DNA of 64,000 nucleotides from Squalus acanthias (GCA_030390025.1 CM059431.1:149174001-149238000); one strand, 5' to 3'. Positions 6,219-46,500 are shown, numbered from the stretch's first letter. Numbers and translations: made by a program. The notes: generated by a model not told the origin, from the sequence alone.

Positions 6219-8685
6219 TTTTTTTTTTATTCGTTGCTGGGCTTTGGGCGTCCCTGGAAAGTCCAACAATTATTGCCCATCCATAATTGCTCTCGAGAAG
6301 GCGGTGGTGAGCCGCGTTAAAAACCGCTGCAGTCCATCTGCTGAAGGTACTCGCACAGTGCTGTTTGGGAGAGATTCTCAGGATTTTGACCCAGCGACGA
6401 AGAAGGATCGGCGTTATATTTCTGTGTCAGGATCATGTGTGACTTGCAGGTTAACTAGGAGGTCGTGGTGATCCCATGCGCCCTGCTACTCTTGTCCTTC
6501 GAGGTAGAAGACGTCGCGTGTTTGGGAGGTGCTGCCGAAGATTCCTATGTGAGTTACTGCAGTGAATCTTGTGGGTGGTACACACTGCAGCCACGGTACG
6601 CCGTTGGTGGAGGGAGTGAATGTTTAAGGTGGTTGACTTGGTGCCAACCAAGTGGGCTGCTTTGCTCTGGATGATGTTGAGCTTCTTGAGTGTTGTTGGA
6701 ACTGCACTCATCCAGGAAAGTGGAGAGTATTCCATCACACTCTTTACTTGTGTCTTGTACATATCGGAATGGCTTTGATGAGTCAGGAGGTGAGACAATC
6801 GCAGCAGAATACCTAGCCTCTGACCTGCTCTTGTTGCCACAGTATTTATGTGGCTGACCCAGTTAGGTTTCTGGTCAATGGTGATCCCCAATTGTTGATG
6901 GTGGGGGATTCGGTGATGGTAACGCAGTTGAATGTCAAGGAGCGTTGGTTAGACTCTCGCTTGTTGGAGATAATCTTTCCCTGGCACTTCTGTGGCGTGA
7001 ATGTTAACTGCCACTTATCAGTACCAGCCTGAACGTAGTCCATGTCTTGTTGCATGCGGGCATAGGCTGATTCATTATCTGTGGATTTGTGAATGGGAGG
7101 AAAACTGTGCAGTCGTCAGCGAACATTCCCATTTCTCATCTGATGTTGGAGGGAAGGACATTGATGAAGCAGCTGAAGATGGTTGGGCCTAGGACACTGC
7201 CCTAAGGAACTTCTGCAGCGAAGTCCTGGGGCTGAGATGATTGATCTTAAATCACCACAGCGATCTTCATTTGTGATAGTTATGACTCCAGCCAGTGGAG
7301 CTATTTCCCCCTGATTCCCAATAGCTTCAATTTTACTAGGGCTCCTTGATGCCACTTTCGGTCAAATGCTGCCTTGATGTCAAGGGCAGTCACTCTCACC
7401 TCACCTCTGGAATTCAGCTAATTTGTCCATATTTGGGCGAAGGCTGTATTGAGGTCGGGAGCCTAGTGGTCTTAGCGGAACCCAAACTGGGCTTCAGTGA
7501 GCAGGTTATTGGTGAGTAAGTGCCGCATTATAGCACTGTCGATGACACTTTCCATCATTTTGCTGATGATTGAGAGTAGACTGATGGGGCGGTAATTGGC
7601 CGGATTGGATTTCTCCTCCTTTTTGTGGACAGACATACCTGGATAGTTTTCCACATTGTCGGGTAGATGCCAGTGTTGTAGCTGTGCTGGAACAGCTTGG
7701 CTAGAGGCGCGGCTAATTCTGGAGCACAAGTCTTCAGCACAACAGCCGGGATTTTGTCGGGTCCCATAACCTTTGCTATATCCAGTGCGCTCAGTCGTTT
7801 CTTGATGTCACGTGGAGTGAATCGAATTGGCTGAAGACTGTCTGCTGTGATGGTGGGGATCACAGGAGGAGGCCGATATGTCATCCACTCGGCAGTTCTG
7901 GCTGAAGATGTTTGCAAAAACGTCAGCCTTGTCTTTTGTACTCAAGTCTTGGGCTCCACCATTATTGAGGATGAGGATATTCATGGCGCTTCTTCCTCCC
8001 AGTAGTTGTTTGATGGTCCACCACCATTCACGACTGGATATGGCAGGACTGCAGAGCTTTGATCTGATCCGTTGATTGTGGGATCACTTCGCCCTATCTA
8101 TAGCAGGCTGTTTCCGCTTTTTAGCCTGCATAAATTCCTGTGTTGCAGCTTCCCCAGATTGGACCTCATTTTTAGTTGAGCCTGGTGCTGATCCCGGCAT
8201 TCCCTTCTACAATCCTTATTGAACTAGGATTGTTCCCCTAGCTTGATGGTCATGGTAGAGTGAGAGATATGCCGGGCCATGAGGTTACATATTGTGGTGG
8301 AATACAATTCTCCTGTTGCTGATGGCCCATCTACCAAGGCTGTCATGGACAGATGCATCGGCGACAGGCAGATTGGTGAGGACGTGGTCAAGTAAATTTT
8401 TGCCTCGTGTTGCTTCTCTGACCTCCTGTCGCATGCCCAAACTTGTCTGTCCTTCAGGATTAGGCCTGCTCGGACAGTAGTGGAGCTACCGAGCCACCTT
8501 GGTGATGGACATTGAAGTCCCCCACCCTTGCTATACTCAGAGCTTCTTCCAAGTGCTGTTCAACATGGAGGAGTACTGATTCATCAGCTGAGGGAGGGCG
8601 GTAGGTGGAAATCAGCAAGAGGTTAGCTTGCCCATGCTTAACCTGAATCTATGAGTCTTCATGGGGTCTGGAGTCAATTTTGCTT
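6218..8685 (-). mobile_element. Degenerate CR1/L2-group LINE ORF2 (endonuclease part and RT)
   Basis: Frameshifted peptides NPANYRPISLLSIISK, AQFGFR, RAGQRLGILLR; A-rich tail at about 6218-6230. Confidence 0.88.
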
Positions 8686-35640: not shown

Positions 35641-35933
35641 TAAAGCTGCGAAATTTAGATTTTAAACTGTATACAGTAACAGTAAATGTGAAACAAACAA
35701 GTTTGATTTTAGCAAACAGTTAAGATCCCTGACTCACCCAACTCGCAGCACTATGTTTAAACCACACTCACATTCGTGAACCAGATGTGTTTTTACTACA
35801 AGCCGGTAGTTTCAAGGTTACCATTCCTGACACTAGCTTTTTATTCCAGATTTGTTTAATTAATTTAATTTAAATTCCCGAGCTGGTGGGATTTGTACTG
35901 CAGGGTATTTCGTCCGGACATCTGGTTTACTAG

Positions 35934-36696
35934 TGAAGGATCCAGCTTGTTCCCAAAGAATGCTGGGATACTTGACTACATTACTCTCTATTTATTTCGG
36001 ATAGTAGGTTTAGCTAATTAAGGCATATTTGTAGACTGGAAGGTGCCTCCCTCCCCTTATGAAACCTTGGGATATATGTATTCACTACCTCAGTAGAGCC
36101 ATTGTCAAAGCACAGCCTGGCCTCCCAAGAGATAAGGGAGCAATTAACAACCAACACAGTTCCAGGCACAAAGGGGTACATCTACTATTCGAACCTGGTC
36201 TCCCAAGAGATAAGGGAGCAATTAATGACCAACTTGGTTCCAGTCACTGAGCATCCAAGCCATTACGGCCTTGAGCCACCCCGCTCTGTCCGACAGCCAG
36301 GGATAAAATATGTTTTCTCAAACTATAAACTATGCCCGCAAAGGAAGAGATAAAGCAAGAATTTGGGGAGTAGGATGAGGCAACCAACATCTGTGACTGG
36401 CATGGTCAGGGTTCAAGGGGAGGGCCCGACAGTTGAGTGACTAACCATATAACCAATAGAGAGTAACTGTAGTGACACTGTTTGTACGTGTACGCCCCAT
36501 TCTGTAGTAAGTGGGCGCTGCTTATAGAAATGTATAACTTGAATGAACCGTTACTTGTTCCTCAGAGAGTGCGCCCCTAGCTTGAGGAAGCTGAGTGGCT
36601 CTCCCTTGTGCACAAGTCTTTTTTTTATTTTAATAAATTCTGAACTTGTCCTCAATTCCGTCTCCGTCTAGAGTTTCTCCAAATTCGAATCTAACA
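35934..36696 (+). repeat. 5' LTR
   Basis: TGAAGGATCC...AATCTAACA; internal ~40-bp direct repeat with AGATAA (about 36116-36155 and 36194-36233), CCAAT near 36453, TATA-like sequence near 36523-36536, AATAAA 36632-36637. Confidence 0.97.
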
Positions 36697-36698
36697 GT

Positions 36699-36716
36699 TG
36701 GTGTCAGAAGTGGGAT
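36699..36716 (+). promoter_or_regulatory. Primer-binding site, tRNA-Leu type
   Basis: TGGTGTCAGAAGTGGGAT 2 nt after the 5' LTR; complement of the vertebrate tRNA-Leu 3' end ATCCCACTTCTGACACCA. Confidence 0.92.
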
Positions 36717-36720
36717 ACTG

Positions 36721-36729
36721 CAGGTAAGG
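36721..36729 (+). promoter_or_regulatory. Putative major splice donor of the provirus
   Basis: CAG|GTAAGG immediately downstream of the PBS. Confidence 0.6.
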
Positions 36730-37306
36730 ACCATAGGAGTTAAAGACACTGGAAGTGACGGTTAAGGCGAGAACTGTGTCGAGTCCTAAGGGAAAAGCCA
36801 GAGTAAGGCATTTATAAGGAACACGGACTCACTCGTCACCGGTGGGGCTAAAACCATTTATGGTTCAGTCAGTATAAAAGTACCCACAACTTAAATTATT
36901 CCACACGGAGACCTGACTGACGGAATTGATTAGACATAAGTGTATTTTTTTCTGATTTAGAGTATAAGGTGAAAAGTGTATATTTCTGATTTAAAGTATA
37001 AGATTGGATCCTTGAGAGTCACTGGTGATCGACACGGACAAGGGTGGTTGTCTATCTCAAACACCTAGCCTGAGCCTGAATTAAGAGGGCGATTGGGCCC
37101 CACGTGACGGCCAGGATCAAGTAGGTGTAGAGAACTAAAACACCACAGGATCGTGATCCCGTGACGATTAAGTGTACGCAAAAAAACGGGTGACGACCCG
37201 GAGGGATTTAAGTTAAAGTCTGTTTAGATTGTAAGTTTGTGTCGCTTGTGCCGATTAATGTATAAGATAGAGTATAAGAATACACGTGACTATTTATATG
37301 GATCAC

Positions 37307-37704
37307 ATGGGAAACAAGGGGAGATCTCTTTCACCCGACGTTCCGGCTATGGCCATCAGTGTCACTGTCGTTCAACAGGTCCGAGAGGCTAATTTGAAAC
37401 TTCAGAGTGAAATGGTTAAAAAGGGGTGGAAAGAAATAAGCTCAGTAGCTGACCAAATAAAGTGGTGGGCGGAACAAAAATAAGCCAAACAAGCTAGGTA
37501 CGGGGCGGTTCTATGTACTAGTTGGATGGATCAGATGGGATCTATAATCGTGGATAAGGGGGGAAGACCGACCCCGTTTCAAGGATTCTTGAGACCTATG
37601 CAGGAGGCTAAAGTCCAAGTTAGCAATCTCCTGCACCTTAAGTCGCCAGGGACTGAGAATCTAGACGATTTGAAAAACTGGGGAGACCCCGGAAATCCAG
37701 GGTA
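37307..37704 (+). pseudogene. gag: gag-like N-terminal remnant
   Basis: ATG GGA start (MGNKGRS...) at the expected post-leader position; in-frame TAA at 37481-37483; frame stays open to about 37700; no capsid or zinc-knuckle motif seen, so the call is positional. Confidence 0.5.
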
Positions 37705-38996
37705 ACCGAGCCGCCGATTCGGCAGCCCGACAAGCTGTGTTGGTTATCCCTGTGATGGCCCTTAGTCCTAAGGAAGTAGCACAAATTGAAAAGGCTTCCC
37801 TGATCAACGATTTAACGAACGATACGCTCCTAACCGCGTACCTTTCCGAGTCCCCTGAGAATATACAGTTTTGGGTGCGTGAGGGAGCGTACAAAGACTC
37901 TAGTGGGTTTTGGCGTCACGAGACAAAGTACGTAGTTCCTACGTCGATTCGACGTGCCCTGATACAATCTTACCATGAGCCTGCACACGTGGGAGGGTAT
38001 AAGCTATATTACATTATAGCTGACACCTGGTGGTGGCCCAGCATGGCCAGAGAAATCCACGAGTACGGGCGCCTATGTCTGCCCTACCTCCAAACAGGAA
38101 TCAGGAGCCACATACGAGTGCGTATGGGGCACGCACGGCGGCCCAGGGGACCCTGGACGCACTTACAAATGGATTACACAGGACCCCTACCCCCCACTGG
38201 CGCGTATAACCATGTCTTTGTAGTCATCGACCTTTTTACCCGTTGGGTCGAGGCTTTCCCCACAAGGAGGAATACAGCTGAAGCAGCTGCAAAAATCCTG
38301 GCGATGGAAGTCATTCCCCGATGGGGAGTGCCTTACCAAATAGATTCTGACCAGGGAACCCACTTCACCGGCAAGGCTATGAAACAGGCTTTAGCCCTCC
38401 TGGGGGTTCGACAACGGTTCCACATCCCTTACCATCCGCAATCCTCAGGAATGGTGGAACGGATGAACCGTACTTTAAAACAATCTGTGACTAAGGCCAT
38501 TTTACAGACCGGAAAGGGGTGGCATGCAGTTCTCCCCGCCATTCTTTGGGGCATACGAGCCACGCCAGCCAAAGGTACTGGCTTATCCCCGTTCGAACTA
38601 ATGACTGGACGAGCTATGGTGTTACCCCAAGACGCACCCCCTCAGGGTACGGGGGACACTTCACAATTCCAGACAACCCTCCTGACATACCTACGCCTGA
38701 TCAGTGAGGCCAATCAGGCCAATCACTTTCGGGTCCAACACCTACAGGAGGCACAGGATGCCAAGGGACAAATGGGAGTTTGGAAAGCGCCTCCTCAAGT
38801 AGGACAGTGGGTGATGGTTCAGCGACCGGTTCGAGGTACCTTTGAGCCGCGCTGGGATGGGCCCTTCCAGATCGTCCTAAGTACAGGGACTTCCGTGTGC
38901 CTACAGGAAAAATTAGATGTAAGATGGAGACACTGGAGCCAGACTAAGCCGGTGACGGGGCCCGGGGAAGAGATTTCCCCACCTCTTGGAGACTGA
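37674..38996 (+). CDS. pol: Truncated pol: RNase H C-terminal helix plus open retroviral-type integrase
   Basis: Open frame from 37674 reads KTGETPEIQGNRAADSAARQA (RNase H GNxxAD motif); then HHCC region (YHEPAH...CLPY, last Cys replaced by Tyr), catalytic D (LQMDY), D (DSDQG), 35 residues, E (GMVER), and GPF motif (WDGPFQI); no in-frame ATG before the RNase H tail. Confidence 0.93.
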   Translation, partial: KTGETPEIQGNRAADSAARQAVLVIPVMALSPKEVAQIEKASLINDLTNDTLLTAYLSESPENIQFWVREGAYKDSSGFWRHETKYVVPTSIRRALIQSYHEPAHVGGYKLYYIIADTWWWPSMAREIHEYGRLCLPYLQTGIRSHIRVRMGHARRPRGPWTHLQMDYTGPLPPTGAYNHVFVVIDLFTRWVEAFPTRRNTAEAAAKILAMEVIPRWGVPYQIDSDQGTHFTGKAMKQALALLGVRQRFHIPYHPQSSGMVERMNRTLKQSVTKAILQTGKGWHAVLPAILWGIRATPAKGTGLSPFELMTGRAMVLPQDAPPQGTGDTSQFQTTLLTYLRLISEANQANHFRVQHLQEAQDAKGQMGVWKAPPQVGQWVMVQRPVRGTFEPRWDGPFQIVLSTGTSVCLQEKLDVRWRHWSQTKPVTGPGEEISPPLGD

Positions 38997-39168
38997 AAAA
39001 AAAAAGGTAAAATTCAGAATTTGCTGAGCGAAAGGAATCTTAAAGGGAATGCTGAGATCTCAGTCTGTGTGTAAGTCTGTGTGAAAGTCTGTGTGAAAGT
39101 TTCCTGACTATAAACTCTAAGAAGTTACGGTATTTCCTTGGTCTGAAATTCTGTTTTAAAAAGGGTGC

Positions 39169-39304
39169 CTGTTGTATCTGTTAGCTCCACCCACCTTTTG
39201 GTACAGAGAGCTAAAAGCTGTTAACCCTTTTGAGGAAATGTCTGTTGTATCTGTTAACTCCACCCACCTTTTGGTACAGAGAGCTAAAAGCTGTTAACCC
39301 TTTT
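39169..39304 (+). repeat. 63-bp direct repeat x2 in the proviral pol-ORF spacer
   Basis: CTGTTGTATCTGTTA(G/A)CTCCACCCACCTTTTGGTACAGAGAGCTAAAAGCTGTTAACCCTTTT at 39169-39231 and 39242-39304. Confidence 0.92.
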
Positions 39305-39473
39305 AAGCTGTCAACCCTTTTAAAGACATATTTGTTGTGTTCGTTTTACAATTAAAAAAAGAAATAAAAACAAGTATTGACCTGCCTTTTCTCCCCTATA
39401 CTTGATAAGGACCGGATTTCGAAGGATTAAGTCGGTTCCTCGGGTTGCTATTTTACCTGTCTCTTTCTTACAG

Positions 39474-40133
39474 ATGAGTGGGTCTGACCTCAGTAGTGCC
39501 ACCACTACCGGGGATGTCGAGTTTTCCACGGTCCAGGCTTTCGACTTAACCAGGGATCCCGCGAACTCACATTATTATACGACTCTAACCTTCCCCGGGA
39601 TTCACCCCTTGACTCTAGAGTTCCGGTTATCTCCCTTTTGTGGTAGGGCCACCGGACCCCTCGCTTTTCATCCCAACAGAACTCAGACTCTTTTATTCAC
39701 CCTACCCCGTGCAGGGGAGACTGACCGGTTCCGAGATACAGCTGCTCTTTGGGAACCGCTGGTGTCGGGACTGGAGGACCTTCCTCAGGGGATATCCACT
39801 CCCTATTATAGACCCTCCTACCTCCGAAGGAGGACAGTGCAACCTGTCTTCACCCATCCCCGTCCGACAGCTCCTAACCCTTACCGGATCACGTTAAGTC
39901 AGGTAAGTTACATTGAGCCACTGTCACAAGGCCACCGTCTCCGCCTCAATGCCACATATGAAGTAGCCCCAACCCCGCTCCGAGCCCTGCGCACACGGCC
40001 AATACCCGGACAGACAGGGAGAGAGACAGAGAGAGACAGAGAGAGAGAGAGCCTGCTAGTTACTACTGTACAAGCTAGTGTCGAGACAGATAAACAAATT
40101 GGACTCCTTCTGCCTAGCGGAGGTATAGGATAA
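39474..40133 (+). CDS. Orphan accessory-type ORF between pol and env (219 aa from ATG; possible internal exon 39474-39902)
   Basis: Strong acceptor TTTTACCTGTCTCTTTCTTACAG directly followed by ATG at 39474; consensus donor CAG|GTAAGT after 39902; no stop until 40131-40133; no recognisable domain. Confidence 0.55.
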   Translation: MSGSDLSSATTTGDVEFSTVQAFDLTRDPANSHYYTTLTFPGIHPLTLEFRLSPFCGRATGPLAFHPNRTQTLLFTLPRAGETDRFRDTAALWEPLVSGLEDLPQGISTPYYRPSYLRRRTVQPVFTHPRPTAPNPYRITLSQVSYIEPLSQGHRLRLNATYEVAPTPLRALRTRPIPGQTGRETERDRERESLLVTTVQASVETDKQIGLLLPSGGIG

Positions 40134-40135
40134 CC

Positions 40136-42223
40136 ATGGGGTGGCTTATCATGGAAATGATAGGGATACTGATCAGTGAACAAACAACACGCATCACGAC
40201 ACTGGGTTTCTGCGTCGACCGGTCGGGAGCCCCCCTTTTTCTCTGAAATGCCTACTGTTCCACACAAAACGCACAGGGGAGTCTGTACCAGTAAAATCAC
40301 AGGGAAGACGGACAGGATATGCTGTCAGAATAATGCGGTGCACTGGGACCCCTCATGCACGCCTACCTCAGAGAGATGTCAGACTTTCGGAATCATAGAA
40401 CAATACGTGGAGCCCGGTCTACCGCTGGTGATCGACAGCTACTGGGCTGCCCCCCCTACACCCCTGTCCCCAATGGTTTCCACAAAACATTTCCCCTCCG
40501 AGCGCGAGCCACTGACCTGCCCCCCTCGTGAAAGAGGGACCCGCTAGTGGGTTGGTGTTCACCCGTACTGGGGATATATTGTATGATAACGTGCGTCATG
40601 AATTAGTGTCAGTGGTGCTAAACCTGGCCAACACCGCCCTGCCTGCTTGGTGCTCACCACAAACCCAACAGTTATACCAGCGCCTTCTAACACAGGTATT
40701 GAAACAAGGCGCGGATCGTAGCGGAGGCGGATATAGACAGGGAAGCCGGAGGGTATGGCGACGTAAGAGGTCTTTAGTTAATGATGCAGCAACGATTTTT
40801 AACACTGGCACGTCGGTCGTTAACACCATTGATCTGGCTACCGTAGATCAGATGGTCCGGGATCTGGGTTACCGCATTAAAGCTATCTTACAAGAGCAAA
40901 ATAAGAATGAGGACCAAGAGTTAAAGGAGGACCAGATATTAACCGTATACCTGCAGTATATAGCTACTGTGTTAGAAACACACGCACAGACTATAAATAA
41001 GTTAATTAAAGAAGAATACAATGCCTCACAGCAGGCAGCAGCAAACGACGTTTGCAGCACATATGGGAATTGGATAGTGGAGCAAACCCGAGAAAACCTG
41101 GAACAGATACAGGCAGGGGAGGTACCCCTGTGGATTACCAACCAACAGTTAAAAGGGACCCTGGCTCGCGGACACGCTGGGGCGGGTACACCCAAACATC
41201 TCTTAAGTAGCCTCAATATGACAGTTTGTCAATTCCGAGCCATGGTACGGGTATTCCCCACGCAGGTTGAATGCAGACCAGACGGGGGGGGGATTTCTGG
41301 GGCTAATTCTGGTCGTCCCGGTAATGACACCAGAGACACAAGGGCGGGAGGTGTATCAGGTACAAAATATTGGTATACTAAAAGATGGCATGCATATATC
41401 TTACCACAATATGTTACCTTGCGCAGTGATGGTGAAAGGAGATTGGATGGTTACCAAGCTGGAGAGATGTGTCACCAGACATGCCATCATCATGTGCCCG
41501 CATGCAATCAGCCAAAGCCCGCAAGCCCAATGTGGTTTTAATAACACAGGCATGGAAATTAACTGCACCATGGAAGCATTGGACGCAGCCTCAAAGCCTA
41601 CCCAGGTGGCGTACGCCAGCAAAGGCGAATACTGTGTGACGACCAACCTGAAAACGTTTGAGTATGCCAATCTAACTTGCAACATCCCCAGTTCAGAGTT
41701 CTGCTTCTACCCCGCAGTTCCGGTACGGATTGGACATGAGGAATTGGTGGACATACACCAGTTTGATATTACCTTTCTTCAAGTGTCTGAAGACGTCAAG
41801 TATGGATTATGGGACTACATCAACACCTTTGGGTATCCTATACCCCCCCTGCCCGAACTCCTGAGGCAGTTGCGAAAGGAGATACGACTCTCCCAGAAGG
41901 TGTACTATACTCTACAACAACGGAACACGGATCTGAAGAAAGATATCGACGCGATCAAGGTGACCACATGGCTGGATGACATTTGGGACTGGGGACTAAA
42001 TATACAGATCCATCCATGGATCCGATTGATTTCACATGTATTAGTCGTGATGCAGTTAGTAATTGTCCTGACCTAGTTATGTATGACATGCAGGAAATGT
42101 AAACGGACTCGGGCTAAACAAATTGCAAAGCAAGCGGTTAAAACTGTTAATGCGTGCACTGCTCCTACTCCAAGTGTTGCAGATGATGATTTTGACAACT
42201 TGTTGGAGAAATCATGTGCATGA
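40136..42223 (+). pseudogene. env: env-like class I fusion glycoprotein with F-protein-like layout, disrupted
   Basis: Kozak ACCATGG at 40136 with hydrophobic leader MGWLIMEMIGILIS; furin site RRKR at 40759-40770, then a fusion-peptide-like segment and heptad region; Cys-rich middle; second heptad; W-rich WLDDIWDW; TM segment; basic tail. Three +1 frameshifts at C6T5 (40230-40240), C6 (40520-40525) and G9 (41284-41292), plus TAG at 42074-42076. Confidence 0.88.
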
Positions 42224-42550
42224 ATAATGAAGCAAATATATAATGAATCGGGGAATGCCTAAATAGCAACTTCACTCATCTGATGCATACCTGGTGCCTA
42301 GACGGGTGGCCACCCCGACAGGACTCACACCAGACCACATGCAACGAATGTGCGGCCTACCTGGAATAGCCAAAGGCCTAGGGGGAAGTATAGAATAAAT
42401 TGGGTGGGTTTACAGGTAAACCTTCATCATTCGTGCTAGTTGATCCGGGAAAAACCTATATGCGTTTCTGACATATTATACACTCACTAGCTTATCACAC
42501 TATTTAGCGTAGAGAGCACACTCTCCAACCCCCTTTAAGGGTCCTTTTCG

Positions 42551-42568
42551 GGGGATTGGAAGGGGGGA
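42551..42568 (+). promoter_or_regulatory. Polypurine tract
   Basis: GGGGATTGGAAGGGGGGA ending 1 nt before the 3' LTR. Confidence 0.88.
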
Positions 42569-42569
42569 C

Positions 42570-43332
42570 TAAAGGATCCAGCTTGTTCCCAAAGAATGCT
42601 GGGATACTTGACTACATTACCCTCTCCTTATTTCGGATAGTAGGTTTAGCTAATTAAGGCATATTTGTAGACTGGAAGGTGCCTCCCTCCCCTTATCAAA
42701 CCTTGGGATATATGTATTCACAACCTCAGTAGAGCCATTGTCAAAGCACAGCCTGGCCTCCCAAGAGATAAGGGAGCAATTAACAACCAACACAGTTCCA
42801 GGCACGGGGGGTACATCTACTATTCGAACCTGGTCTCCCAAGAGATAAGGGAGCAATTAATGACCAACACGGTTCCAGTCACTGAGCATCCAAGCCATTA
42901 CGGCCTTGAGCCACCCCGCTCTGTCCGACAGCCAGGGATAAAATATGTTTTCTCAAACTATAAACTATGCCCGCAAAGGAAGAGATAACAGCAAGAATTT
43001 GGGGAGTAGGATGAGGCAACCAACATCTGTGACTGGCATGGTCAGGGTTCAAGGGGAGGGCCCGACAGTTGAGTGACTAACCATATAACCAATAGAGAGT
43101 AACTGTAGTGACACTGTTTGGACGTGTACGCCCCATTCTGTAGTAAGTGGGCGGTGCTTATAGAAATGTATAACTGAAATGAACCGTTACTTGTTCCTCA
43201 GAGAGTGCGCCCCGAGCTTGAGGAAGCTGAGTGGCTCTCCCTTCTGCACAAGTCTTTTGTTTATTTTAATAAATTCTGAACTTGTCCTCAATTCCGTCTC
43301 CGTCTAGATTTTCTCCAAATTCGAATCTAACA
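42570..43332 (+). repeat. 3' LTR
   Basis: TAAAGGATCC...AATCTAACA; matches the 5' LTR with roughly 20 differences by eye; the initial TG reads TA in this copy. Confidence 0.97.
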
Positions 43333-43527
43333 CTAGTTCAGCAACAAAACAACTATAAAACCGTACCCTTCAAATATATCGCCGTTCCTTCATCATCACT
43401 GGGTCAAAAGCCTGAAATTCCTTCCGTAACAGTATTGTGGGAGCACCTTCACCACACGGACTGCAGCGTCTCAAGATGAAGACCCACCAATCCAATTTAT
43501 CATGGATAAATAGGGATGGGCAAGTAA

Positions 43528-46500
43528 TAAGAACATAAGAAATAGGAGCAGGATTAGGCCAATCGGCCCCTCGAGACTGCTCCGCCATTCAATAAGATCA
43601 TGGCTGATCTAATCCTAACCTCAAATCTAAAGAACACAAGTAGTAGGAGCAGGACCCTGCCACTCAGCCCCTGGGCCCGTTCCGCCCCCCACAGGGCCCT
43701 GACCGATCCTAACTCAGCCTCATGTCCAATTTCCTGCCCGCTCACCGTAACCCCTAATTCCCTTTACCTCTAGGAAACTATCTATTTCTGCTTTAAATTT
43801 ATTTAATTATGTAGCTTCCACAGGAACCTGGGGCAGCAAATTCCACAGAGCTACGACCCTCTGAGTGTAGAAGTTTCTCCTCATCTCAGTTTTAATAGAG
43901 CAGCCCCTTATTCTAAGATTATTGTCCCTACTTCTAGTTTCACCCATCCTTGGGAACATCCTTACCGCATCCACCCGATCAAGCCTCTTCACAATCTTAT
44001 ATGTTTCAATAAGATCGCCTCTCATTCTTCTGAACGCCAATGAGTAGAGTCCCAATCTTCTCAACCTCTCCTCATATGTCTACACCCTCATCCCCGGTAT
44101 TAACCGAGTGAACCTTCTTTGTACTGACTCGAGAGCAAGTATGTCTTTTCTTAAGGATGGAGACCAAAACTGTATGCAGTATTCCACGTGCGGTCTCTCC
44201 AATACCTTATATAACTGCAGCAGCACCTCCCTGTTTTTATAATCTATCCCCCTAGCTATAAAAGCCAACATTCCGTTGGCCTTCTTGATCACCTGCTGCA
44301 CCTGCATACTAACTTTTTGATTTTCTTGCACTAGGACCCCCAGATCCCTTTGAACTGCAGTTATTTCCAGTTTCTCGCCATTAAGATAATAACTTGCTCT
44401 CTGATTTTTCCTGCCAAAGTACATAACCTCACATTTTCCAATATTGTATTGCATCTGCCAAATTTCCGCCCACTCACCCAGCCTGTCTATATCCACTTGT
44501 AGGTTTTTTATGATCTCCTCACTTTCTACTTTCCCCCCCATCTTTGTATCAACTGCAAACTTTGATATGTTACACTCTGTCCCCTTCTCCAAATCGTTAA
44601 CACAGATTGTAAAGAGTTGGGGACCCAGCACCGACCCCTGCGGAACACCACTGGCTACTGGTTGCCAGACCGAGAATGAAACATTTATCCCAACTCTCTG
44701 CTTACTGTTATATAACCAATCCTCCACCCATGCCAGAATATTACCCCCAATCCAGTGATTTTTTATCTTGAGCAATAATGTTTTATGTGGCACCTTGTCG
44801 AATGCCTTCTGGAAGTCTAAATATACTACGTCCACTGGTTCCCCTTTATCCACCCTGAACGTTATGTCCTCAAAGAACTCAAGCAAATTTGTCAGACATG
44901 ACTCCCCCTTCATAAAGCCATGCTGACTTTGTCCTATTAAATTATGTTTATCTAAATGTTCCGTTACTGTCGCCTTAATAATAGACTCAAAATTTTACCC
45001 ACCACAGATGTTAGGCTAACTGGTCTATAATGTCCAGCCTTCTGCCTACTTCCCTTTTAAATAAGTGTGTTACATTAGCAGTTTGCCAATCTGCCAGGAC
45101 CTTTGCTGAGTCCAGAGATTTTGGAAAATTATTACCAAAGCATCCACAATCGCTACTGCCACTTCCCTCAAGACCCTAGGATGTAAGCCATCAGGTCCAG
45201 GGGATTTATCCGCCTTGAGTCCCATTATTTTACTGAGTACCAATTCCTTAGTGATTTTCATCGTATTTAGCTTCTCCCCCCCTAGAGCCCCCTGTTTGTC
45301 CAGTGTTGTGATATTCTTAGTGTCCTCTACCGTAAAGACTGAAACAAAATATTTGTTCAGCATTTTTGCCATCTCCATGTTTTCCACCATTAATTTCCCG
45401 GTCTCATCCTCTAAGGGACCTACGTTTGCCTTAGCAACCCATTTACTTTTTATATAACTATCGAAACTCTTGCTATCTGTTTTTATATTTTTTGCTAATT
45501 TATTTTCATAATCTATCTTCCCTTTCTTAATAAATCCTTTAGTTATTTTTTGCTGTCTTTTGAAGAATTCCCAATCTTCTATCCTCCCACTAACTTTGGC
45601 TACCTTATATGTCCTTGTCTTTAGTCGGATACTATCCTTAATTTCTTTACTTAGCCATGGATGGCTGTCATTTCTTTTACACCCTTTTTTCCTTAGTGGA
45701 ATATATTTTTATTGAAAGTTGTAAAATAACTTCTTAAATGAACACCACTGCTCATGTAACGTCTTACCCTTTAATCTATTTTCCCAGCCCACTTTAATCA
45801 ATTCCGCTCTCATACCATCATAGTCTCCTTTATTCATGCTCAGTGCGCTTGTTTGAGAACCAACCTTCTCACCCTCTAATTGGATATGGAATTCAACCAT
45901 GTTATGGTCACTCATTCCAAGGGGATCCTTAACTAGGACATTATTAATTAATTCTGACTCATTACACAGGACCAGGTCCAAAGTTGCTTGCCCCCTTGTA
46001 GGATCAGTTACATACTGCTCAAGAAATCCATCCCTAATACACTCAATAAACTCTTCCTCAAGGCTGCCCTGCCCAATTTGATTTGTCCAGTTAATATGAT
46101 AGTTAAAATCTCCCATAATTATAGCTGTTCCCCTATTACATGCCCCAACTATTTTATGATTAATACTTCTTGCAGCAGAGTTGCAACTATTAGGAGGCCT
46201 ATATACTACTCCCACTAGTGTTTTTTTCCCCTATTATTCCTTATCTCCACCCAAACTGTTTCATTATCCTGATCCTTTGACCCAATATCATTTATCTCTA
46301 TTACAGTGATTACTTCCTTTATTAACATAGCCACCACACCTACACTTCCTTCCTGCCTGTCCTTCCTGATTGTTAAATACCCTGGCATATTTAGTTCCCA
46401 GTCGTTGTCACCCTGCAGCCATGTTTCTGTAATGGCCACAAGATCATACCCATACGTAGTTATTTGTGCCGTAAACGCGTCCATTTTATTACGAATGCTA

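What the first reader, a model, noticed from the sequence alone, without database searches (positions are those of the whole stretch)
35934..43332. RT-less endogenous retrovirus-like provirus retaining integrase, an orphan ORF and an F-like envelope
Seen: all cis signals of a genuine integration (paired 763-bp LTRs, CTAG TSD, tRNA-Leu PBS, PPT). Only about 1 kb separates the PBS from the RNase H C-terminal helix, and no capsid, protease or RT (YxDD) motif is visible, while the integrase frame is open for over 400 codons with D-D35-E intact. Established: retroviral replication needs Gag, PR and RT, so this genome could only have been copied with a helper. Inference: it is either a one-off post-integration deletion or a helper-dependent, satellite-like retroviral lineage keeping IN, an accessory gene and env, which is an unusual combination because non-autonomous ERVs commonly lose env.
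Basis: partly seen in the sequence, partly recalled or inferred. Interest (0 to 1): 0.9.

Follow-up and report, generated by a model that had tools for sequence, protein, structure and literature searches.

The report
One-off deleted endogenous retrovirus copy
This is a real but dead endogenous retrovirus copy whose gag-to-RT deletion occurs nowhere else in the genome, so it is an ordinary broken copy; its virus family, with a paramyxovirus-F-like envelope and other deleted forms that did multiply, is the more interesting part.

Summary
Window 35934-43332 is a provirus with 763-bp LTRs, a CTAG duplication, a PBS, a PPT and an open 440-codon integrase frame, and it has no capsid, protease or RT.

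The satellite-lineage reading does not hold. A 40-mer across the deletion junction (up to 3 mismatches) occurs at 1 place in the 3.7-Gb assembly, the window itself. Relatives with the same LTR carry full gag-pro-pol, with RVP, RVT_1, RNase_H and integrase. The window copy lacks about 3.42 kb of that sequence, joined at a GGGG microhomology.

The copy is dead:
- The gag remnant has a private stop codon.
- The integrase frame is +1 relative to gag.
- Integrase has lost a zinc-ligand cysteine.
- Env is in three frame pieces.

The same family does hold amplified pol-deleted forms. One, with a capsid/nucleocapsid-to-integrase-end junction, occurs at 41 places, and 8 of 8 duplications read differ. 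Its LTR pairs differ by 0-3 substitutions, against 17 in the window copy. It lacks integrase.

The envelope folds like paramyxovirus F. The orphan ORF looks coding (dN/dS 0.34).

Verdict: an ordinary deleted provirus in a notable family.

The parts
35930..35933 (+). Target-site duplication CTAG, 5' copy
   Evidence: flank printed; same 4 nt at 43333-43336
35934..36696 (+). 5' LTR, 763 bp, TG...CA. It lacks the 49-nt 5' duplication that most other copies carry.
36699..36716 (+). Primer-binding site, 18 nt. tRNA-Leu assignment is by recall only.
   Evidence: tRNA identity not verified
37298..37683 (+). 5' remnant of gag, about 129 codons, with a private stop codon at 37481-37483
   Evidence: translation; (intact counterpart in L031); table 3 (all contigs laid show a different base at 37481)
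37680..37687 (+). Deletion junction. GGGG (37680-37683) is shared by the gag side and the RNase H side. About 3.42 kb of the full-length relative L039 is missing.
37684..38996 (+). RNase H C-terminal tail plus integrase. The open frame runs 37674-38996 (440 codons), +1 relative to gag. The second Cys of the zinc CxxC is lost.
39166..39307 (+). Tandem duplication between pol and the orphan ORF: two 69-nt copies, 96% identical, start-to-start spacing 73. Some other copies have one unit.
39381..40133 (+). Orphan ORF (orfX): 250 codons stop to stop, Met at 39474, conserved core of about 185 residues
40173..42076 (+). env, broken into three frame pieces (40173-40547, 40516-41541, 41222-42076). It has an RRKR cleavage site and a C-terminal membrane anchor. 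The intact-frame relative folds like paramyxovirus F.
42558..42569 (+). Polypurine tract GGAAGGGGGGAC
42570..43332 (+). 3' LTR, 763 bp
43333..43336 (+). Target-site duplication CTAG, 3' copy

Best explanation
The element is one dead, internally deleted copy of an endogenous retrovirus family. Full-length members of that family are organised LTR-gag-pro-pol-orfX-env-LTR. This copy lacks about 3.42 kb, running from gag codon ~129 to the last helix of RNase H. The two sides are joined at a 4-nt GGGG microhomology (imperfectly 8 nt).

The deletion is private to this locus, so no lineage with this structure was propagated.

Timing is not resolved. I put about 55% on a template switch by reverse transcriptase while it copied a full-length genome in the cycle that made this provirus, which needs no helper. 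I put about 45% on a later deletion in host DNA.

Nothing in the copy is expressible as a retroviral protein:
- gag stops at codon 62.
- The junction puts integrase out of frame with gag.
- No protease is left to release integrase.
- A zinc-ligand Cys of integrase is lost.
- env is split into three frame pieces.

The open integrase frame is what chance allows at this age.

Shown: the structure, the uniqueness of the junction, the existence of full-length relatives, and the lesions. Inferred: the mechanism and timing of the deletion.
For: Uniqueness of the junction:
- The junction 40-mer (up to 3 mismatches) occurs at 1 of 1 place, the window itself, with 0 hits for the reversed control.
- 39 of 39 other scored places match window 37500-37800 only up to 37687 (40 of 106 candidates scored).
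- Seven other places at 90-97% identity match the integrase DNA only from 37680 onward.

Full-length relatives:
- L039 and L043 have the same LTR at 97-98% identity and a continuous gag-pro-pol.
- The L039 pol frame is 957 aa, with RVP 4.1e-9, RVT_1 2.8e-28, RNase_H 4.6e-19 and Integrase_H2C2 1.1e-11. Its gag piece has two CCHC knuckles.
- The sequences on both sides of the junction were read directly.

Age and relationships:
- In a tree of the shared 5' 1.75 kb, the window copy groups with the two full-length copies (support 0.92) and has a long terminal branch of 0.0186. The deleted-family copies have terminal branches of 0.001-0.007.
- The window's LTR pair differs by 17 substitutions, against 0-3 in 10 copies of the 41-place form.

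No sign of selection on integrase:
- The window integrase has 17 private substitutions: 6 synonymous and 11 non-synonymous. One removes the CxxC Cys.

Lesions:
- The gag stop and the +1 frame offset.

Deletions are common in this family:
- Another single-copy deletion that removes RT and keeps integrase exists in L045; its junction occurs at 1 place.
Against: - Only this one assembly was searched. It has 3882 contigs, and repeats may be collapsed or missing, so a few further copies could be unassembled.
- No related species' assembly could be searched.
- The BLAST-type searches scored only 40 of 106 candidates and 40 of 619. The pattern search is described as whole-genome.
- The timing of the deletion cannot be told from one copy.
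Confidence: 0.87

Rival explanations
1. This is a helper-dependent, satellite-like lineage that keeps integrase, orfX and env and is copied in trans by full-length relatives.
For: - The family clearly supports trans-mobilised deleted forms, with junctions at 41, 7 and 3 places.
- The leader and the 5' part of gag, where packaging signals usually lie (my recall), are kept in the window copy.
Against: - The junction is unique: 1 of 1 place.
- The integrase frame is out of frame with gag, and gag is stopped.
- The zinc-ligand Cys is lost, and the 11:6 ratio of non-synonymous to synonymous private changes shows no selection.
- Of the three forms found at several places, two remove almost all of integrase and the third removes its catalytic N-terminal half.
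Confidence: 0.04
2. The junction is an assembly artefact: a collapse between the gag part of one copy and the integrase part of another.
For: - The family is highly repeated; the LTR search gave 621 first-look candidates.
Against: - The element is coherent. Its LTR pair, matching CTAG duplication, unique flanks and a uniformly long terminal branch all fit one old copy.
- The private substitutions are spread over both sides of the junction.
- The join sits at a microhomology, as do the other real junctions in the family.
Confidence: 0.04
3. The integrase frame, or orfX or env, of this copy is kept open by host selection, that is, it has been co-opted.
For: - The integrase frame is open for 440 codons, although the copy is roughly 15 times older, by LTR divergence, than the young burst.
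Against: - With 17 private substitutions, an open frame is roughly a coin toss. This is my estimate, assuming about 4% of random substitutions create a stop.
- The non-synonymous to synonymous count of 11:6 is near neutral, and a metal ligand is lost.
- There is no in-frame start from gag.
- env is in three pieces.
Confidence: 0.03

Closest known systems
Ordinary internally deleted ERV proviruses: single-locus gag-pol deletions, common in all vertebrate ERV families (my general knowledge)
   Same: Both LTRs, the target duplication, PBS and PPT are intact. An internal deletion sits at a short microhomology, is private to one locus, and is followed by neutral decay.
   Different: Nothing essential. 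The retained part (integrase + extra ORF + env) simply reflects where the two breakpoints fell.
Trans-mobilised deleted ERV forms: mouse IAP I-delta-1 and ETn/MusD (PMC1331978, passages read); bovine ERVK[2-1-LTR] with 15% competent C-type and 85% defective D-type elements, 'parasite-of-parasite' (PMC10924933, abstract and passages read)
   Same: The comparison applies to the family's 41-place form, not to the window copy. It has a shared deletion junction at many loci with different duplications and near-identical LTR pairs, and it outnumbers pol-bearing copies about 5-7 to 1.
   Different: - The window copy fails the defining test, because its junction is unique.
- The shark forms keep the whole orfX-env half. 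ETn is non-coding, MusD has no env, and the bovine D-type lacks intact ORFs.
- Even so, the env frames of the shark copies are broken in 0 of 12 intact.
Lokiretroviruses (PMC7947760; abstract, section 5 and passages read)
   Same: Retrovirus-type genome whose Env resembles paramyxovirus/pneumovirus F and has an RxKR cleavage site. Some members carry an additional gene.
   Different: - The paper reports sequence similarity to Pfam PF00523. Here no Pfam hit was found at E<=1 and the likeness is by predicted fold.
[quoted passage not shown] The words 'shark', 'cartilaginous' and 'Chondrichthyes' do not occur in it.
- The Pol here is much nearer to MLV-type RT than to foamy or Ty3 RT among solved chains (323 against 183 and 132 bits).
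- The extra gene here is not SMC-like (no Pfam hit).
- Membership by RT phylogeny was not tested.
Class I (gamma/epsilon-like) ERVs
   Same: - The best solved-structure matches of Pol are p80 RT/RNase H chains (3.8e-95) and MMLV RT fragments.
- The gag stop is followed by pol in the same frame.
- There is a weak MLVIN_C match.
- The target duplication is 4 bp.
   Different: - Env is F-like rather than gamma-type.
- NC has two CCHC knuckles.
- There is an extra ORF between pol and env.

Membership tests
LTR provirus (integrated retrovirus) | Paired LTRs ending TG...CA, flanked by a short target-site duplication | tested here: met
   763-bp LTRs, 98-99% identical in blocks. CTAG lies on both sides. 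The 3' LTR starts TA instead of TG.
LTR provirus (integrated retrovirus) | PBS after the 5' LTR and a polypurine tract before the 3' LTR | tested here: met
   An 18-nt PBS lies 2 nt after the LTR, and GGAAGGGGGGAC abuts the 3' LTR. Which tRNA it matches was not verified.
LTR provirus (integrated retrovirus) | Retroviral integrase domains | tested here: met
   rve 7e-18 and Integrase_H2C2 3.4e-10. One zinc-ligand Cys is lost.
Autonomous (replication-competent) retrovirus | Complete gag, protease and RT | tested here: not met
   3.42 kb is missing relative to L039. Pfam finds no RVP or RVT_1 in the window element.
Trans-mobilised non-autonomous ERV lineage (ETn/MusD, IAP I-delta-1, bovine D-type) | The same deletion junction at several loci with different flanks and duplications | tested here: not met
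   Window junction: 1 of 1 place. By contrast, the family's capsid/nucleocapsid-to-integrase-end junction occurs at 41 places, and 8 of 8 duplications read are distinct.
Trans-mobilised non-autonomous ERV lineage | Coexisting coding-competent relatives with the same LTR | tested here: met
   L039 and L043 have the same LTR at 97-98% identity and carry gag-pro-pol. Both have some lesions.
Lokiretrovirus | Env related to Mononegavirales F | tested here: met
   - Shown by fold only. The model has pLDDT 65.3.
- Every chain listed down to rank 50 in Foldseek is a paramyxovirus or pneumovirus F; the best is 1ztm_A, E 6.6e-11.
- There is no Pfam PF00523 hit.
Lokiretrovirus | RT branches as sister to all other retroviruses | not testable with these tools
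   No lokiretrovirus or reference RT sequences were in hand. Among solved chains, MLV-type RT is by far the closest, which leans against membership but is not a phylogeny.
Class I (gamma/epsilon-like) ERV | RT clusters with gamma/epsilonretroviruses | tested here: inconclusive
   Only a ranking against solved structures was made: MLV-type 323 bits, foamy 183, Ty3 132, HIV about 65. No tree with reference retroviruses was built.
Class I (gamma/epsilon-like) ERV | Gamma-type Env (SU-TM with CX6CC and an immunosuppressive domain; my recall) | tested here: not met
   Env folds like paramyxovirus F. It gives no retroviral Env Pfam hit.

The most novel reading that the evidence does not exclude
This cartilaginous-fish ERV group combines an MLV-like Pol, a paramyxovirus-F-like Env and a conserved extra gene (orfX). 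It repeatedly spawns pol-deleted parasites that always keep the orfX-env half.

- Three deletion forms were each found at several places (41, 7 and 3).
- A further 18 places in an 88-92% subfamily match only the 3' half of integrase.
- Two independent junctions end within about 20 nt of each other, just before the end of pol.

The novel reading is that the 3' half supplies a function in cis or in trans that favours mobilisation. Candidates are env splice or export signals, or orfX or Env activity. On this reading retention is selected rather than accidental, and the group may be a retroviral lineage not yet described in sharks.
Probability: 0.2. Interest if true: 0.6.

Novelty: new member of a known kind. 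Interest (0 to 1): 0.3.

Why it matters
The flagged element itself matters little. It is a single dead copy and tells nothing new about retroviral replication.

The check did map a young and diverse ERV family in a cartilaginous-fish-type genome. The family has three features worth a specialist's look:
- A paramyxovirus-F-like envelope sits beside an MLV-like polymerase. This bears on where retroviral envelopes came from, a question raised for lokiretroviruses in PMC7947760.
- An extra gene between pol and env has no recognisable relatives, yet its substitution pattern is that of a coding gene.
- Defective forms outnumber competent ones about 5-7 to 1. That is the 'parasite-of-parasite' dynamic described for cattle ERVK (PMC10924933), here with env retained.

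Tried and rejected
1. **tRNA identity of the PBS.** A 15-nt PBS core followed by any base except A occurs at 588 places. ARAGORN found no tRNA in the three loci scanned with find_trnas. A scan of all DNA held found only a tRNA-Lys in L010. The tRNA-Leu assignment therefore stays a recollection.

2. **Public reads.**
   - No RNA holder was listed.
   - Four runs of contigs were laid on 37300-38100.
   - No contig bridges 37687/37688.
   - Contigs ending at 37687 run on into gag sequence. Contigs starting at 37680 are preceded by RNase H sequence (tables 7, 8).
   - Contigs cannot show absence, so this is not used as evidence either way.

3. **orfX.** Nothing was found by any route:
   - no Pfam hit;
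   - no usable Atlas hit;
   - no homologue among 334 candidates of 120-384 aa;
   - no BLASTP hit among the 67 proteins held;
   - a fold of pLDDT 35.2, too poor to search with.

4. **env by sequence.** There was no Pfam family at E<=0.1 or E<=1. The only PDB sequence match had E 0.6. Among 12 relatives, the only F-related match was a sub-threshold Baculo_F match in P0018 (E 0.0011). The Atlas features pointed to F-type clusters at 0.94, but recognition was low (1389), so I used it only as a lead.

5. **Earlier notes of this scan**. Nothing bears on this element.

6. **Further copies.** I could not fetch the 88-92% subfamily that breaks at window 38323, or the 3' halves of the full-length copies.

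7. **Lokiretrovirus membership by RT tree.** No reference sequences were available.

8. **Other copies in the window.** A search of the window found none.
Full report
**1. What is at 35934-43332**

- Two 763-bp LTRs lie at 35934-36696 and 42570-43332. One search finds three repeat blocks of 98-99% identity at a spacing of 6635-6636.
- The LTRs differ by 17-18 substitutions and 3-4 gap columns.
- CTAG lies immediately outside both ends.
- An 18-nt primer-binding site follows the 5' LTR after 2 nt. A purine tract, GGAAGGGGGGAC, abuts the 3' LTR.
- The frame 37674-38996 is open for 440 codons. It matches rve (7e-18), Integrase_H2C2 (3.4e-10) and, below cut-off, MLVIN_C.
- Downstream lie a 250-codon ORF (39381-40133) and an env-like region split over three frames.
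- The tRNA-Leu assignment of the PBS is my recollection. My attempts to find the matching tRNA gene failed.

**2. The element is one of a large, young family**

- The LTR has 40 scored matches at 97-98% identity, out of 621 first-look candidates in the window's own 3.7-Gb assembly.
- Most paired LTRs lie about 6.2-6.3 kb apart. That spacing is shorter than in the window copy.

**3. What the other copies look like**

I compared eight other copies by BLASTN.
- Six of them share window 35934-37687 and 38934-43332.
- Between those two blocks, where the window has integrase, they carry about 875 bp that continue the gag frame.
- In L031 this is a 434-codon frame with a PPEY motif.
- The gag frame is joined directly to the last few codons of integrase.
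- The remaining two copies, L034 and L035, carry other deletions (section 7).

**4. Full-length relatives exist**

Searching with the integrase DNA found seven other places at 90-97% identity. All of them match only from window 37680 onward.

Two of these, L039 and L043, have the same LTR and a continuous gag-pro-pol.
- L039 has a 957-aa pol frame with RVP, RVT_1, RNase_H and integrase domains.
- Its gag piece has two CCHC knuckles.
- Its gag stop is followed by pol in the same frame.

Against L039, the window copy lacks about 3.42 kb. The missing stretch runs from gag codon ~129 to the C-terminal helix of RNase H.

The two sides share GGGG, or imperfectly GGGG[T/A]GAC, at the joint.

**5. The decisive test**

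I searched the whole assembly for 40-mers spanning each junction, allowing up to 3 mismatches.

| 40-mer | Places |
|---|---|
| Window junction | 1 (the window itself) |
| Capsid/nucleocapsid-to-integrase-end junction of the common form | 41 |
| Undeleted RNase H/integrase site | 8 |
| Undeleted capsid/nucleocapsid site | 6 |

- The reversed control for the window junction gave 0 hits.
- Of the 41 places, 34 are exact matches, 6 have one mismatch and 1 has three.
- In one search, 39 of 39 other scored places stop at 37687.

The window structure is therefore a one-off.

**6. The copy is dead, and its open integrase frame needs no special explanation**

- In the gag frame (ATG at 37298) there is a private stop at codon 62. 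After the junction the gag frame ends within eight codons.
- The integrase frame is +1 relative to gag.
- Compared with five close copies, the window integrase has 17 private substitutions: 6 synonymous and 11 non-synonymous. One replaces the second Cys of the zinc-binding CxxC.
- That ratio is near neutral. With 17 substitutions, escaping a stop is about a coin toss. This is my estimate, assuming roughly 4% of random changes create a stop.

Age relative to the rest of the family:
- I built a tree of the shared 5' 1.75 kb from the window copy, 11 copies of the 41-place form, L035, L039 and L043.
- L034 and L044 were left out because their best match was under 1400 nt. L048 was not entered.
- The window copy groups with the two full-length copies (support 0.92). 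Its terminal branch is 0.0186, against 0.001-0.007 for the deleted-family copies.
- Its LTR pair differs by 17 substitutions, against 0-3 (mean 1.1) in 10 copies of the 41-place form.
- It is therefore an older insertion, roughly 15-fold older by this measure, from the time when pol-bearing copies were integrating.

**7. Deletions that remove RT are commonplace in this family**

| Form | What is deleted | Places |
|---|---|---|
| Window type | gag codon ~129 to RNase H tail; integrase kept | 1 |
| Common form | capsid/nucleocapsid boundary to integrase end | 41 |
| L034 type | start of RT to integrase end, at an AGATGG microhomology | 7 |
| L035 type | gag codon ~57 to mid-integrase, at GTGG | 3 |
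| L045 type | protease/RT to RNase H; integrase kept | 1 |

- In addition, 18 places at 88-92% identity match only window 38323-38938. I could not fetch them.
- The common form was copied as such. In 8 of 8 copies read, a matching 4-bp duplication flanks the element, and all eight differ: GCTT, GAGC, ACGT, ACAC, GTAG, TGAC, CTAG and ACAG.
- Four further copies were not read for this.
- This is the known pattern of trans-mobilised defective ERVs: IAP I-delta-1 and ETn/MusD (PMC1331978, passages), and bovine ERVK C and D types (PMC10924933, abstract and passages).
- Every deleted form seen keeps orfX and env.
- The env frame from signal peptide to membrane anchor is uninterrupted in 0 of 12 copies of the common form. 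It is also interrupted in the window copy, L034 and L035.
- The 434-codon gag frame is open in 6 of 12 copies. The 250-codon orfX frame is open in 2 of 12.

**8. Timing of the window's deletion**

One copy cannot tell whether the deletion was made by reverse transcriptase or later in host DNA. Both mechanisms use short microhomology.

Several junctions in this family were demonstrably made before integration, because they were then propagated. For that reason I lean slightly (55:45) to a template switch during the reverse transcription that produced this provirus. Neither route requires a helper.

**9. The envelope**

- Pfam and PDB sequence searches gave nothing.
- A full HMMER scan found 49 relatives. 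Where the ten looked up carry names, they come from sharks and frogs.
- I made a model from the longest env frame, which is L031's 629 codons without the signal-peptide part, aligned with 24 relatives. It has pLDDT 65.3 and pTM 0.46.
- By Foldseek it matches only paramyxovirus and pneumovirus F proteins among the chains listed down to rank 50. The best is hPIV3 F, 1ztm_A, with E 6.6e-11 and TM 0.35/0.49.
- The sequence has an RRKR site followed by long helices and a C-terminal anchor.
- 'F-like' is therefore supported at moderate confidence.
- F-like Env is the hallmark of lokiretroviruses (PMC7947760). That paper names no cartilaginous fish.
- Pol here is far closer to MLV-type RT than to foamy or Ty3 RT among solved chains.
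- Whether this is a lokiretrovirus or a class-I-like virus with an F-like env needs an RT tree, which I could not build.
- Two paper searches turned up no description of such a shark family in their listings (15 papers; 197 papers, of which 12 were listed). This is not an exhaustive search.

**10. The orphan ORF**

- Between the window family and a subfamily about 9% divergent (L052), the ORF's frame is the only one of six without stops.
- It also has the lowest dN/dS: 0.34, against 0.48-1.47 in the other five frames.
- That value is similar to integrase at 0.29-0.38.
- The first ~185 residues from the Met are conserved across five copies. The tail differs.
- The ORF has no detectable relatives and gave no confident fold.
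- It is probably a real accessory gene of unknown role.

**11. Verdict**

- The exciting interpretation is rejected for this element, which is an ordinary, privately deleted, decaying provirus.
- The family around it is moderately interesting. It has an F-like env, an extra gene, and several amplified pol-deleted forms that keep env.

Noticed in passing
L031-L033, L035-L039, L043 (5' ends of LTRs); window 35934: Most family copies, including both full-length ones, carry a 49-nt direct duplication of the first LTR bases. It sits just before the point where the window's LTR starts. The window copy, L047, L050 and L034 lack it. I first misread this duplication as a shared 5' flank.
   Followed up: partly
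G000 C29:9455515-9468146; also C20:13698335-13704542: The common deletion junction recurs three times at 6295-6297-bp spacing on C29, and twice at 6168-bp spacing on C20. This suggests tandem LTR-internal-LTR arrays rather than separate insertions.
   Followed up: no
window 41400-41420 region; same site in L031, L033, L046 and others: A run of G in env (after ...RPDGGG) differs in length between copies. It throws env out of frame in the window copy, L046 and L052, and apparently in others, while L031 and L033 stay in frame. It may be a recurrent homopolymer slip or a sequencing error.
   Followed up: partly
window 43807-44994, minus strand: A non-LTR (LINE-type) reverse transcriptase fragment lies about 0.5 kb downstream of the provirus (RVT_1 1e-19). 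A similar fragment lies beside L039.
   Followed up: partly
window 36116-36169 and 36194-36247 (U3): A 54-nt imperfect direct repeat (87-91% identity) lies inside the LTR. It appears in all copies compared.
   Followed up: no
whole genome: The 15-nt PBS core followed by C, G or T occurs at 588 places, against 1+1 for the reversed control. Most are followed by C. Other ERV families in this genome probably use the same primer.
   Followed up: no
P0004, P0011, P0017, P0022, P0038: Env relatives from sharks and frogs share the F-like body. It starts at a conserved CP...EGP.SGL stretch. Their N-terminal heads of about 130-180 residues are unrelated to one another. One is named Ig-like domain-containing by its source. 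In this family the head is a small Cys-rich domain.
   Followed up: partly
runs X6 (organism B) and X8: Contigs from a run labelled as another organism match the gag part and the integrase part at 90-99% identity, so the family is not confined to the assembled species. A run guessed to be RNA holds contigs of the gag part only.
   Followed up: no
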